Assembly: GCF_009914755.1 (NCBI RefSeq)
Contig: NC_060928.1
Source of the DNA: the human T2T-CHM13v2.0 reference genome, Homo sapiens
Reading direction: 5' to 3' (one strand)
Length of the DNA stretch: 64,000 nt
The notes below the pieces were generated by a model. The model was not told the DNA's origin, made no database searches, and saw only the letters and a program-made list of their open reading frames with translations. Shown here one piece after another: positions 25,191 to 32,811 of the stretch. The translations under genes and the position numbers were made by a program. The stretch's first letter is position 1. Every line of letters begins with the position of its first letter.

Positions 25191-25940
25191 TACTGGATGT
25201 TGCATAGTTTCTAGTTTAATGTAAACATTATAAACCATATTTGTACCCATTACAAATTGCAGCTATTAAATAATCTTGAAAATCACATCCCACCTTTAAT
25301 GATTTGAATCATGGGACAGTGCAAAGGGCACCTGAATACACGTCGTAGTACTTAGGTTCTTGGCTCTTTCACTAAACAGCCACATGATCACGGGCAACCT
25401 CTTTAACCTTGATGGCAGTCCATGAGAAAACATGTACAAGTACCTAGTCCAATGCTTGGCATATGATATAGGCACTCAACATTTGTTAAAATTGAAGTTT
25501 TAACTCATATTAAACAATTTCTATTTTTTAGGAGTTACATACCAAGTTGCAGTACCCTCTTATTTGACATGTAGATCTGGAAATATTCATTTCATCCAAA
25601 TGAGACTAAGCAAAATCATATATTATCTCAAAACACTGAATCAAATGGAATAGTATTCCATTTGAATACTATTAAAAATAGTATTAAAAAATAGCTCTTT
25701 TTAACCCACAGATCACAGGCAAACTATAGATTGAAACAGGAGATCTTTTTAATAGAAAAATGCCACAGCAATTTAATCAAAGTCTGAACAAGGACTTTGC
25801 CTGCTGCCACAAATACCATGACAAACTGTGGCATTATGAGAAGCAATTAATGATGAAGATATGATAAATAAAACATGAGTTGGCCAGAATATTTTTACTG
25901 ATGTCTTCTCATTTGACTTCCTGGTATAAGATGGTCAATT

Positions 25941-26224
25941 TATCACGCCTGTAATCCCAGCACTTTGGGATGCCAATGTGGGCGGATCACCTGAGGTCAG
26001 GAGTTCGAGACTAGCCTGACCAACATGGAGAAACCCCGTCTCTAATAAAAATACAAAATTAGCCAGGCGTGGTGGCGGGTGCCTGTAATCCCAGCTACTC
26101 GGGAGGTTGTGGGAGGAGAATCGCTTGAACTCGGGAGGTGGAGGTTGCGGTGAGTCAAGATTGCGCCATTGCACTCCAGCCTGGGCAACAAGAGCAAAAC
26201 TCTATCTCTAAAAAAAAAAAAAAC
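25941..26224 (+). mobile_element. Alu (slightly 5'-truncated) inserted in the FAM200B-like copy
   Basis: 14-bp TSD AGATGGTCAATTTA at 25929 and 26225. Confidence 0.92.
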
Positions 26225-27265
26225 AGATGGTCAATTTAACTGTCAACTTAATCGAAAAGCCAATGATTGTAACAATTAAAATTTTGGTTAATAAAATTCA
26301 ATTATTTGTGACTTAATGTGTGAAGGATTTCATCTGCTACTGACAGAAGTATAAAGACAAAAAAAGTATCAGTTGTAAATGGTCAGTTCATTTGTCAAAA
26401 CACATTATCTAGTATGGTATTTTCAAATTTATAACTTGTAACATTTTAATCAAACTACAAATTACACTTGAACCACATTTTCAAAAATAAAAATAATCAA
26501 GAATGATGAAGTAAAAACTGCTCAAGTTCAACTGCTGGATCTGGGATGTAAAATAAGTGACAAAACAGAGAAAAGTGTTGAGTTTTTAAACAGCAGATTT
26601 TGACTTTATTCAAATCACATTTATTTTTTTTTGTACTTGGTTTTTGTATTGTTCTTTGTACTTGGTTTTTGTATTGTTCTTTGTTTATTTCAAACCAACA
26701 GCCAACATCGTACAAGTCACATTCTAAAAAGAAAAAAGGAAGTATAAAAGATTATAATGAAGATAATTTAATATGTGCATTTATCAAATGTGTCAATGGT
26801 ATTCTTGAAATAAAGGCTTAAAATCTTCAAAATTAAAAAAGCTATTTGGATATAAGATGCTGAACTCACTGACAAAGGAAAAAAATACATTCAAGTTCCC
26901 AGACTAATTTCTTAGTTATTGCACTATTGTTAGTGATAAAGCCTTATTATCATCATTAAAGCATATTGTGAGACAGAAAACAACTCACATATTTTCTTCT
27001 AACATGTCTGGATATGGTATGTATAACTTTAAATCTCAGCTAATTAATTAAAAACTATCCAGAGTGACAACACAGTAGCTCATTTACTTTTTACCACTGC
27101 AGAACATTTGGAAGCAATAGTTACTATAAGTCTGTACAGACTTCATAATCCACCTTGTTGAAAATAAGCTGCATAACACTTGTAGAGAAATGTAGGAAGA
27201 TCGGTTAGTACAGGATACACCATGTTGTTTAAATATAACCTCAGACACAACTGAATTAGATATAT

Positions 27266-31200: not shown

Positions 31201-32177
31201 TCATCTATGATAACAATGCCTTCGTCTGTAATACTTTGAAGGATCTGTCTGAAGTTGTTTTACGGTTAACTTTTGAAAATATACATAGGTAGAAAAAGTA
31301 TACTCTAAAATAACAATAGGGCAGGTGCAATGGCTCACACCTGTAATAAGCACTTTGGGAGGCCGAGGTAGCTGGATCGCTTGAGCCCACAAGTTTGAAA
31401 CCAGCCTGGACAACATGGCAAAATCCTGTCTCTACAAAAAATACAAAAAATTAGCCGGGTGTGTTGACCCGTGCCTGTAGTCCCAGCTACTTGGGAGGCT
31501 GAGGTGGGAGGATCACCAGAGCACAGAAGGTCGAGGCTGCAGTGAGCCAAGATTGCACTACTCTACTCCACCCTGGGCAACAGAGTGAGACCTCATCTCA
31601 AAAAAAATAAAGATAAAATAAGGATAAATGTATCAGCAAGACAGTAGACCAGCATCACCACAGACACATAAGACATCATCATTGAGATCTATGACATCAC
31701 TAGGTGGTAGGAATTTTCCAGCTCCATTATAATCTTATGAAGTCTATCATTGAACAAAATGTCTTTATGTGATCCAAGACTGTACTGTAATATTTTTGGA
31801 TGATCCTTTCCTTGGCCTCAGGTCATTTCCTCACATGCATACAGTGATCAATACTTACCTGAAGAATCAGGAGAGATTCATTCCAGATCACTAGAATTCT
31901 CTCTCTATGCAGCTCTCTCCCTTCTAGCAAACTCTGGCTGCACTGGTTTCACCAGGCTCCAGGCTCTATCAACAGAGGGATTCCACTAGGCTGCATATGT
32001 TCCCCTCTCCCTGTACTATGGCTTAGAAATTCTCCCAAGGCAATAAACTGAGGCAATCATAGGACTCACTTTGTTTCCTATTGATCAAGGTTCACTGTCC
32101 TTCATTGCCTGATATCCAATATCTTGGAAAACATTGTTTTATATATTTTGTCCATTTTTTATTGTTTCTGGCCTGTA
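28219..32177 (-). mobile_element. Old L1M insertion containing Alus (29076-29385, 29606-29730), a MER20-like piece and a Tigger3
   Basis: antisense L1M 3' end AAGCTTTATGGAGG..., GGGTAAATACCTAGGAGTAGAA; TSD TCAA(G/A)CTTTTAAC at 28206 and 32178. Confidence 0.8.
30480..31782. mobile_element. Tigger3 (Golem)-type DNA transposon with internal Alu (31319-31620)
   Basis: TA|CAGTCATGTGTTGCTTAATGAC ... AAGACTG|TA; terminal inverted repeats with TA TSD. Confidence 0.85.
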
Positions 32178-32811
32178 TCAAACTTTTAACCATTACATGC
32201 CAGAACAAAAATTGATAAATTCAAGGAAAAAACTGGATAGATTTGTTTTCCAACATTCTGAATCAAAAACTGAGTTATGCTTGGTGCCTGCAGAATAGGA
32301 AATATTGTAGCTTACTTCTCTGGAAATACTAAAGAATGATTATGAAATATCAAATGCATCGTGTTTTTTTTTTTTTTTAATTCTCTAGCCCTATGTCATA
32401 ATGATGTATCATTCTTTTGGAGGAAATAGGATTGTTCATTGCTAAGTGGCATGAATGTAGTACCGCTATTGGTACTTTTAATTCTTAACCCATAAAAACA
32501 AAGAAACAGAGTTAACACTGTACTGGGTATGTGAGAACTGCACTTGAGATCCCAAACTGAAATCAACTTATGAATACATAGCACACTCATCACTTTAAAT
32601 AAAATGTCCCCCAATTTTTATTATATTGTATTTATTTGGGATTATTTCTCCATTTTACGTTTATATATTAGTGAAATTATATGTAATCATAACTTTTTTC
32701 CTTACAAAATTATTACTCATGAAACTTTCATTTTAATCATAAAACCTTCTTTTCTCCTTATCAACTCATTTCTATCATCTTAGAAGATTATCAACGTTAT
32801 GGGATTTTTGG

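What the first reader, a model, noticed from the sequence alone, without database searches (positions are those of the whole stretch)
25790..32735. Hidden full-length decayed twin of FAM200B upstream in the same orientation
Seen: not visible in the ORF track, but colinear with FAM200B from leader to past the stop. Leader: GAAGATATGATAAATAAAAC (about 25855) vs GGAGATATGATGAATAGAAT (about 44851). Pre-ATG: TAACATTTTAATCAAACT in both (about 26439 and 45099). BED region 26730-26875 vs 45300-45485. ACTGCAGAACATTTGGAAGCAAT (27096) vs ATTGCAGAACATTTAGAAACAAT (45754). 27900-28218 vs 46350-46695. 32178-32350 vs 46683-46865. C-terminus CCAAACTGAAATCAACTTATGAATACATAGCACACTCATCAC (32552) vs CCAGACTGGAATGAACTTATGAACAGGCAAGCACACCCATCA (47065). 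Inference: either an ancient tandem duplication of the domesticated gene or a local hop of the parent hAT element. One copy was kept intact and the other decayed, giving an internal neutral control that indicates selection on FAM200B. The twin may be intact in other mammals.
Basis: partly seen in the sequence, partly recalled or inferred. Interest (0 to 1): 0.85.

Follow-up and report, generated by a model that had tools for sequence, protein, structure and literature searches.

The report
Decayed transposon sibling upstream of FAM200B
A dead copy of the ancient jumping gene that became FAM200B lies about 12 kb upstream of that gene; it is one of at least 27 such fossils in the human genome, so it is ordinary apart from how close it sits.

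Summary
All seven quoted strings sit at or within 2 bases of the stated places. A same-strand, same-order chain links 25783-32677 to FAM200B 44780-47193.

"Twin" is too strong. FAM200B DNA finds 26 other decayed loci genome-wide, nearly all at 64-75% identity, the range of this copy. The copy is closer to the consensus of those copies than to FAM200B: 79.8 vs 78.1% and 83.0 vs 78.3%.

Its changes are spread evenly over codon positions (p=0.91), like the other fossils. FAM200B and FAM200A show third-position excess. It carries at least 9 in-frame stops and about 24 frameshifts, several later insertions, and lacks the first ~125 nt of the element.

The family tree is a star. A sister relation to FAM200B appears in two of three alignments, never strongly.

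Lying 12-19 kb away in the same orientation has a chance of about 3e-4. The best reading is a local hop of the parent hAT element. Early tandem duplication is not excluded. Interest is low to moderate.

The parts
25783..25941 (+). Upstream copy, leader part 1. It corresponds to FAM200B about 44780-44940. The element's first ~125 nt and its terminal repeat are missing upstream of this point.
Evidence: Family 5' profile positions 126-293, E 1.9e-11. No terminal-repeat match upstream.
25942..26225 (+). Alu inserted into the leader. It is flanked by a 12-bp target-site duplication, GATGGTCAATTT, at 25930 and 26226.
   Evidence: Alu matches at 25943-26219. The duplicated 12-mer is located. Both copies of it align to the same profile positions, 282-293.
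26226..27263 (+). Upstream copy: rest of the leader, the ATG region, the BED-finger region and the first third of the reading frame (FAM200B about 44940-45950).
   Evidence: Profile hit 26226-26544, E 2.3e-20. nhmmer 26374-26621 and 26699-27264, E 1e-7 and 1e-48. tblastn HSPs at 35-52% identity with stops.
27264..27599 (.). Nested high-copy interspersed repeat of about 330 bp. Family not named.
   Evidence: Window 27253-27594 matched 40 scored loci of 2856 candidates at 72-80% identity.
27600..27903 (+). Poorly alignable remainder of the copy, standing in place of FAM200B 45951-46353. It is partly deleted and holds a ~50-nt Alu 3' scrap with an A-run at about 27650-27712.
   Evidence: No HSP to FAM200B. 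Alu-tail matches at 27652-27704. Sequence shown.
27904..28218 (+). Upstream copy, middle of the reading frame (FAM200B 46354-46695).
   Evidence: 70.7% identity, E 8e-39. Nine frameshifting indels and 2 in-frame stops.
28219..32171 (.). Nested block of about 3.95 kb, a composite of later insertions. It includes Alus at 29094-29371 (-) and 31330-31612 (+) and an ~800-bp high-copy repeat at about 30470-31280. It is flanked by a 19-bp diverged duplication, 28200-28218 and 32172-32190, as a retroelement insertion would leave.
   Evidence: The duplicated target aligns twice to FAM200B 46678-46695. Alus. High-copy repeat: 6515 candidates. 0 Pfam hits in the 15 of its 37 ORFs that were submitted.
32172..32677 (+). 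Upstream copy: C-terminal part of the reading frame, the stop region and about 85 nt beyond (FAM200B 46678-47193).
Evidence: nhmmer 32168-32667, E 1.9e-27. BLASTN HSPs.
44657..47193 (+). The transposon-derived body of FAM200B inside exon 2. The family's 5' terminus (CAGTATTTTTCATGG) lies at 44657, 263 nt after the exon's start, and the CDS is 45136-47109. Homology with decayed copies runs to at least about 47190.
   Evidence: 5' ends of five decayed copies and FAM200B align from this point. Motif located. 3' limit. The 3' terminus itself was not found.

Best explanation
The stretch 25783-32677 is a dead, interrupted copy of the same ancient hAT (Charlie/Buster-type) DNA transposon family whose neighbouring copy became FAM200B.

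It dates from the family's burst of activity, before the placental radiation. It has drifted without coding constraint ever since. It was then broken up by an Alu, an unnamed ~330-bp repeat, an Alu scrap and a ~3.95-kb retroelement block.

It most likely reached its place by short-range ('local') transposition between the two linked sites. The direction is unknown. This would have happened while the element was still mobile, rather than by duplication of the already domesticated gene.

A likely reason for the different fates is position. FAM200B's copy lies about 4.6 kb downstream of the divergent FBXL5/FAM200B promoter in the sense orientation, with a splice acceptor 263 nt before its 5' end. 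The upstream copy lies on the other side of that promoter, inside an FBXL5 intron and antisense to FBXL5.

Shown here: homology, decay, family membership, equal age and closeness. Inferred: the hop, and the promoter argument.
For: 1. The colinear chain is highly significant.

2. It belongs to a multi-copy family. FAM200B DNA 45000-47300 gave 52 matches. Apart from FAM200B, FAM200A, three retrocopies and this copy, these fall into 26 other decayed loci. Nearly all are 64-75% identical to FAM200B; single short matches reach 78-89%. Over its aligned stretches this copy is 75.9% identical (1251 nt). The 15 other loci I fetched are 67.9-78.0% identical.

3. It is closer to the leave-one-out consensus than to FAM200B: 79.8 vs 78.1% over 937 columns and 83.0 vs 78.3% over 706 columns. 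Every other copy shows the same pattern.

4. It is the same age as the family. It differs from the consensus at 18.4% of sites, against 16.6-24.4% for 11 other copies. Its terminal branch is 0.25-0.30, against 0.24-0.44. All three trees are star-like.

5. It has drifted neutrally. Codon positions differ at 18.1/17.8/19.3% (p=0.91). FAM200B gives 6.1/5.3/9.9% (p=0.023) and FAM200A 8.4/5.1/15.1% (p=7e-5). It has 9 in-frame stops in 387 codons and 26 frameshifting indels, or 24 without one off-diagonal HSP.

6. The closeness is unlikely by chance. With 26 other loci in 3.117 Gb, the chance of one lying within 19 kb on either side is about 26 x 38 kb / 3.117 Gb = 3e-4. This is my arithmetic on the counts.

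7. No homology was found between the flanks of the two copies outside the element: FAM200B 43000-44656 and beyond 47300, against 20000-37000. Neutral-against-neutral family copies are still detectable at E 2e-15.

8. Named FAM200B orthologues include aardvark, horse, hippopotamus, bats, whales, tree shrew, colugo and primates. The gene, and so the family's burst, predates the placental radiation. That last step is an inference.
Against: - No terminal inverted repeat or 8-bp target duplication could be shown for this copy. Its first ~125 nt are unrecognisable. The family's 3' terminus was not found in any of the copies searched (4 copies and FAM200B, 3 fetched copies, this copy and FAM200B). 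So it is not proven to be a transposition product.
- A local hop and a very early tandem duplication predict almost the same data.
- A specific tie to FAM200B is not robust. With alignments anchored on FAM200B, the copy groups with FAM200B (SH-aLRT 83.9, UFBoot 80). The AU test then rejects FAM200A+FAM200B without it at p=0.040. It shares 17 of 45 FAM200B-specific states, against 89 of 530 for the others (p=0.002).
- With alignments made to a profile of the other copies, those figures become 10 of 65 against 124 of 993 (p=0.45), and forcing the grouping changes the log-likelihood by only 0.06.
- With MAFFT the grouping returns, but at 42/64 support and AU p=0.22.
- Only 15 of the 26 other loci were fetched and aligned. 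Their columns were first defined by alignment to FAM200B.
- The copy count is a lower bound.
- The closeness statistic is post hoc and assumes uniform insertion.
- The family's Dfam/Repbase name was not determined.
Confidence: 0.6

Rival explanations
1. Tandem (segmental) duplication of the already domesticated FAM200 gene. One copy was kept and the other decayed.
For: - The two copies are close and in the same orientation.
- With FAM200B-anchored alignments the copy is FAM200B's nearest relative (83.9/80). The topology (FAM200A,(copy,FAM200B)) is not rejected (delta lnL 2.4, AU 0.38), while (copy,(A,B)) is marginally rejected (AU 0.050).
- It shares 17 of 45 FAM200B-specific states, against 89 of 530 for the other copies.
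- MAFFT again puts it next to FAM200B, weakly.
Against: - It is closer to the family consensus than to FAM200B.
- The excess of shared states vanishes when it is aligned without reference to FAM200B (10/65 vs 124/993, p=0.45). The tree then leaves it at the centre of the star.
- Its own changes show no codon-position bias at all (p=0.91), so there was no detectable period as a constrained gene.
- Its divergence equals that of unlinked copies.
- No flank homology was found.
Confidence: 0.2
2. Independent insertion of another family member that lies near FAM200B by chance or by regional insertion and retention bias. On this reading there is no direct donor-recipient link.
For: - The phylogeny is a star with unresolved relations.
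- There are no robust shared derived states.
- There are at least 26 other copies scattered over the genome.
Against: The chance of a copy within 19 kb is about 3e-4 under uniform insertion (counts), and half that for the same orientation. hAT elements are known for preferring linked sites; this is recalled knowledge, not tested here.
Confidence: 0.17
3. An old processed pseudogene (retrocopy) of FAM200B mRNA.
For: - FAM200B does spawn retrocopies. Copies at chr11:10.50 Mb, chrX:36.85 Mb and chr11:63.4 Mb are 90-95% identical to it. The two whose 3' ends were read (chr11:10.50 Mb and chrX:36.85 Mb) stop in A-runs just after an AATAAA near 47233-47265.
- FAM200B exon 2 contains the whole element, so a retrocopy would also carry the leader.
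Against: - Its divergence matches the transposon burst, not the retrocopies (18.4% from the consensus).
- No A-tail is seen at its 3' end.
- Retrocopies land anywhere in the genome, so the closeness would be a coincidence of about 1e-5.
- No match to the non-transposon part of exon 2, 44394-44656.
Confidence: 0.03

Closest known systems
Fossil autonomous hAT (Charlie-type) DNA transposons of the human genome. The Repbase list names Blackjack, Charlie, Cheshire, MER69C and Zaphod as autonomous hAT families (PMC5753468, passages read).
   Same: - An old, low-copy family with a star phylogeny.
- A 5' terminus of the CAG... type shared by copies.
- A transposase-like frame with a BED-finger region (weak Pfam BED hit).
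- Copies about 17-24% from the consensus and riddled with stops.
   Different: - Which named family it is could not be checked, because no Dfam or RepeatMasker library was at hand.
- This copy lacks the terminal repeat.
- No target duplication or 3' terminus was located.
FAM200B and FAM200A, transposase-derived host genes.
   Same: Same family. FAM200B is 90.6% identical to the consensus of the decayed copies. The upstream copy is colinear with FAM200B from the leader to past the stop codon.
   Different: The genes keep open frames and show third-position excess; the copy does not. FAM200A shares only the part from FAM200B 45497 onward.
Buster-derived genes ZBED5, ZBED8 and ZBED9 (PMC3606216, passages read).
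   Same: They are domesticated hAT transposases of the same broad clade, 33-39% identical in protein to FAM200B. The gene names for those loci come from my recall of their chromosomal positions.
   Different: They are separate, much more distant lineages. No decayed neighbour was examined for them here.
Local ('linked-site') transposition of hAT elements such as Ac/Ds. This is recalled knowledge; no paper was read for it.
   Same: Two copies of one family within about 12-19 kb of each other.
   Different: The event itself cannot be observed. No excision footprint, terminal repeats or target duplications were recovered.

Membership tests
The decayed hAT family that includes FAM200B | DNA homology to other family copies across the element, at the family's typical divergence | tested here: met
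   A profile of the other decayed copies, built without FAM200B or this copy, aligns 1035 nt of it in 3 hits. It is 83.0% identical to the leave-one-out consensus. It differs from the consensus at 18.4% of sites, against 16.6-24.4% for the other copies.
hAT superfamily transposon insertion | Terminal inverted repeats | tested here: not met
   The family's 5' terminus is present in FAM200B and five decayed copies, but no match lies upstream of 25783 in this copy. No 3' inverted repeat was found in any of the copies searched (4 copies and FAM200B; 3 fetched copies, this copy and FAM200B).
hAT superfamily transposon insertion | 8-bp target-site duplication | not testable with these tools
   The ends of this copy were not located, so there is nothing to compare.
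hAT superfamily transposon insertion | Transposase frame with BED finger, catalytic core and C-terminal dimerisation region | tested here: inconclusive
   The copy is colinear with the FAM200B frame. Human FAM200B itself gave only sub-threshold BED and zinc-finger hits in the local Pfam copy. Precomputed labels on its orthologues list PF14291, PF27073 and PF27046, and PF05699 on more distant relatives. Catalytic residues were not examined.
Post-domestication duplicate of FAM200B ('twin') | Closer to FAM200B than to the family consensus, and sharing FAM200B's derived states | tested here: not met
   78.1% to FAM200B against 79.8% to the consensus, and 78.3% against 83.0%. The shared-state excess is present only with FAM200B-anchored alignments (17/45, p=0.002). 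It is absent with profile-anchored ones (10/65, p=0.45).
Segmental (tandem) duplication | Homology extending into flanking non-element DNA | tested here: not met
   nhmmer of 43000-49500 against 20000-37000 found only element-internal and Alu matches. Sensitivity is limited for two neutral flanks of this age.
Processed pseudogene of FAM200B | A-tail after a poly(A) signal, and identity reflecting a later origin | tested here: not met
   There is no A-run at the copy's 3' end and its divergence equals the family's. The 3' ends of the chr11:10.50 Mb and chrX copies were read and do meet the A-run feature; those two and the chr11:63.4 Mb copy meet the later-origin feature.

The most novel reading that the evidence does not exclude
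The upstream copy is FAM200B's true sister and split from it after FAM200A did, giving the topology (FAM200A,(copy,FAM200B)). It would then be a dead tandem duplicate of an already domesticated gene. A human domesticated transposase would be preserved side by side with its own pseudogenised paralogue. That would give a matched neutral clock for dating the domestication and measuring the constraint on FAM200B.
Probability: 0.15. Interest if true: 0.5.

Novelty: new member of a known kind. Interest (0 to 1): 0.3.

Why it matters
This locates the fossil family behind FAM200B and FAM200A. FAM200B still carries the element's 5' terminus inside its exon 2.

The neighbouring copy and 26 unlinked ones give a neutral yardstick. 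FAM200B has changed at about 0.4 times their rate, with third-position excess. That is direct evidence of long-term purifying selection on a gene whose function is little known.

The closeness of the two copies is a plausible trace of local hopping next to the FBXL5 divergent promoter. That setting may explain why one copy was captured as a gene and the other was not.

None of this is surprising to a transposon specialist. The copy is probably already masked as a hAT fragment in standard repeat annotation, though I could not check that here.

Tried and rejected
- **Using the copy's own DNA as a genome-wide query.** It found only FAM200B, FAM200A, the retrocopies and one chr3 fragment. This at first suggested a unique FAM200-only relative. 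I rejected that reading: two neutrally decayed copies are too diverged to find each other, whereas the conserved gene finds them all. In one search the search was swamped by a nested high-copy repeat.
- **Three-taxon and quartet counts.** These were A=B≠T 319, T=B≠A 95 and T=A≠B 81, and quartets 52/20/15. I first read them as showing a split before FAM200A and FAM200B diverged. That does not follow: the three-taxon tree is unrooted, and parallel decay of the two neutral copies can mimic the quartet signal.
- My projection of nhmmer alignments onto columns was wrong. Identities of about 0.24-0.30 exposed the error. The figures printed are void, and one search replaced them.
- **Search for a 3' terminal repeat.** Nothing rose above the shuffles.
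- **Search for the copy's 5' terminal repeat.** Nothing was found.
- **Literature.** The searches were 'FAM200B' (53 papers, 25 listed), 'FAM200A'+'transposase' (0 papers), a four-term search and 'FAM200B'+'transpos' (2 unrelated papers). No paper in the library was found that describes the transposon origin of FAM200 genes or this copy. Supplements were not searched.
- **** was an empty script.
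Full report
**The observation.**

BLASTN of FAM200B exon 2 against the whole window gives six plus-strand HSPs in the same order. They link 45096-47182 to 26436-32666, at 66-81% identity and E-values down to 8e-39. 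Every other hit is an Alu. nhmmer gives the same chain, with E 1e-48, 5e-30, 2e-27 and 1e-7.

tblastn with the FAM200B protein finds seven fragments at 35-52% identity, in shifting frames and with stops. It is real, though. A profile built from FAM200B and five other family copies, without this copy, hits 25783-25941 (E 1.9e-11) and 26226-26544 (E 2.3e-20).

**Anatomy of the upstream copy.**

Element-derived pieces are 25783-25941, 26226-27263, a poorly alignable 27600-27903, 27904-28218 and 32172-32677. Four later insertions lie between them:
- An Alu at 25942-26225, with a 12-bp target duplication.
- A high-copy repeat of about 330 bp at about 27264-27599.
- An Alu tail scrap near 27650-27712.
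- A block of about 3.95 kb at 28219-32171, flanked by a diverged 19-bp duplication that aligns twice to FAM200B 46678-46695. The block contains two Alus and an ~800-bp high-copy repeat. It gave no Pfam hit in the 15 of its 37 ORFs that were submitted.

Read in FAM200B's frame, the aligned parts hold 9 stops in 387 complete codons and 26 frameshifting indels, or 24 without one off-diagonal HSP. The first ~125 nt of the element are not recognisable. So 'full-length' holds for the reading frame and most of the leader, but not for the termini.

**What it belongs to.**

The assembly that holds the window could be searched. With the copy's own DNA as query, only FAM200B, FAM200A, FAM200B-like fragments and one chr3 fragment were found. 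That looked like a unique relationship.

The reverse query changed the picture. FAM200B DNA 45000-47300 gave 52 matches. These are FAM200B itself, FAM200A (84%), three FAM200B-like copies at 89-95%, the upstream copy, and 26 other decayed loci. Nearly all of those 26 are 64-75% identical to FAM200B; single short matches reach 78-89%.

Two of the 89-95% copies (chr11:10.50 Mb and chrX:36.85 Mb) end in A-runs just after an AATAAA near 47233-47265. I read these two, and the chr11:63.4 Mb copy by its 95% identity alone (its 3' end was not read), as processed retrocopies.

The 26 decayed loci have the same identity to FAM200B as the upstream copy. Two neutrally decayed copies are simply too far apart to find each other, whereas the conserved gene behaves like a consensus. 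The 'twin' is therefore one member of an old multi-copy family.

I fetched 15 of the 26 loci.

I ran that comparison on two alignments:

| Alignment | Identity to FAM200B | Identity to leave-one-out consensus | Columns |
|---|---|---|---|
| Anchored on FAM200B | 78.1% | 79.8% | 937 |
| Aligned to a profile of the other decayed copies (FAM200B not used) | 78.3% | 83.0% | 706 |

All other copies show the same pattern. FAM200B itself is 90.6% identical to that consensus over 1607 columns.

**Age and selection.**

Within the CDS, I compared each sequence with the consensus at columns where the consensus is strong:

| Sequence | Sites differing from the consensus | By codon position (1/2/3) | p |
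|---|---|---|---|
| Upstream copy | 18.4% | 18.1 / 17.8 / 19.3% | 0.91 |
| 11 other decayed copies | 16.6-24.4% | similarly flat | |
| FAM200B | 7.1% | 6.1 / 5.3 / 9.9% | 0.023 |
| FAM200A | 9.5% | 8.4 / 5.1 / 15.1% | 7e-5 |

The copy is therefore as old as the family's burst and shows no trace of a constrained period. The two genes have been under purifying selection.

Named FAM200B orthologues in the protein search include aardvark, horse, hippopotamus, bats, whales, tree shrew, colugo and primates. From this I infer that the gene predates the placental radiation. One paper states that there is no mouse homologue (PMC12706826, passages read). None of the 120 listed proteins matches the copy better than FAM200B orthologues do, at 40-44% identity. 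So there is no sign of an intact orthologue, though this is a weak negative.

**Is it FAM200B's sister?**

Maximum-likelihood trees are stars. Terminal branches are long (0.24-0.44) and internal branches are at most 0.033 among the decayed copies. The three alignments give different answers:

| Alignment | Position of the copy | Support | AU test of FAM200A+FAM200B without the copy | FAM200B-specific states shared |
|---|---|---|---|---|
| Anchored on FAM200B | Joins FAM200B and its retrocopy | SH-aLRT 83.9, UFBoot 80 | Rejected, p=0.040 | 17/45 vs 89/530 for the others (Fisher 0.002) |
| Anchored on the family profile | At the centre of the star | Forcing copy+FAM200B changes lnL by 0.06 | Not rejected (AU 0.58) | 10/65 vs 124/993 (p=0.45) |
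| MAFFT de novo | Joins FAM200B again | 42.3/64 | Not rejected, p=0.22 | not computed |

With the FAM200B-anchored alignment, the topology (FAM200A,(copy,FAM200B)) is not rejected (AU 0.38). I conclude that a special tie to FAM200B is suggested but not established.

**Termini and flanks.**

The 5' flanks of five decayed copies and FAM200B align from a common CAG-type terminus. In FAM200B this terminus lies at 44657, 263 nt inside exon 2. The whole element is therefore embedded in that exon.

No 3' terminus could be found in any of the copies searched (4 copies and FAM200B; 3 fetched copies, this copy and FAM200B). Homology among the copies continues somewhat beyond 47190.

Outside the element there is no detectable homology between the flanks of the two chr4 copies. 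Neutral-against-neutral family copies are still detectable at E 2e-15. This weighs weakly against a larger segmental duplication.

**Most likely history.**

With 26 other loci in 3.117 Gb, the chance that one lies within 19 kb on either side of FAM200B is about 3e-4. This is my arithmetic. It is post hoc, and the copy number is a lower bound. The two copies also share orientation.

hAT elements are known, from my recall, to prefer linked target sites. I therefore favour a local hop between the two sites during the family's activity (about 0.6). The rivals are:
- early tandem duplication, including duplication after domestication (about 0.2);
- chance or regional bias (about 0.17);
- retrocopy (about 0.03).

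By the hub's gene table, the upstream copy lies in an FBXL5 intron and antisense to FBXL5, on the far side of the divergent FBXL5/FAM200B promoter at 39.4-40.1 kb. FAM200B's copy lies about 4.6 kb downstream of that promoter in the sense orientation. This offers a plausible, untested reason why only one copy was captured as a gene.

**Known or new.**

The Repbase overview lists the autonomous human hAT families (PMC5753468, passages read). The ZBED paper places the Buster genes in the same broad clade (PMC3606216, passages read). Neither passage mentions FAM200. Four searches found no paper on the transposon origin of FAM200 genes or on this copy. Supplements were not searched.

No Dfam or RepeatMasker library was available. 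I could therefore neither name the family nor check whether the copy is already masked as a hAT fragment, which I think likely. I rate it a new member of a known kind, with low to moderate interest.

Noticed in passing
window 44394-47193 (FAM200B exon 2): The family's 5' terminus, CAGTATTTTTCATGG, survives at 44657, 263 nt after the exon-2 splice acceptor. The whole element, leader included, is therefore exonic in FAM200B.
   Followed up: partly
L054 (G000:C11:10.50 Mb), L009 (G000:C23:36.85 Mb), L012 (G000:C11:63.4 Mb): Three FAM200B-like copies, 89-95% identical. The chr11:10.50 Mb and chrX copies end in A-runs just after an AATAAA near window 47233-47265 (the 3' end of the chr11:63.4 Mb copy was not read). 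They look like processed retrocopies made from a proximal poly(A) site. The chr11:10.50 Mb copy starts at about 44745.
   Followed up: partly
L053 (G000:C7:100.78 Mb, FAM200A): Family homology starts abruptly at the equivalent of window 45497 (residue ~120). The open frame continues 35 codons upstream into unrelated acidic sequence, and no leader or BED region is detectable. FAM200A and FAM200B share only 16 derived states, against 80 and 52 private ones. They do not group robustly, so independent capture versus very early duplication is open.
   Followed up: partly
window 25543-26207 (-): An alternative FBXL5 exon in the hub's table overlaps the copy's leader and the Alu inserted in it, on the opposite strand.
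   Followed up: no
G000:C6:29.59, 29.67 and 29.82 Mb; G000:C12:12.831-12.835 Mb: Three family fragments lie within about 230 kb on chr6, possibly carried along by segmental duplications. The chr12 locus has overlapping query ranges, which suggests two partial copies side by side.
   Followed up: no
G000:C3:151839584-151839762 (L039, L052): A short fragment matches the copy's ATG-proximal leader at 71%, slightly better than FAM200B does (69%). It is probably one more family remnant.
   Followed up: no
window 45136-47106 (FAM200B protein): The local Pfam copy gave only two sub-threshold zinc-finger hits for human FAM200B. Precomputed labels on its orthologues list PF14291, PF27073 and PF27046. 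The local library may lack the newer models.
   Followed up: no
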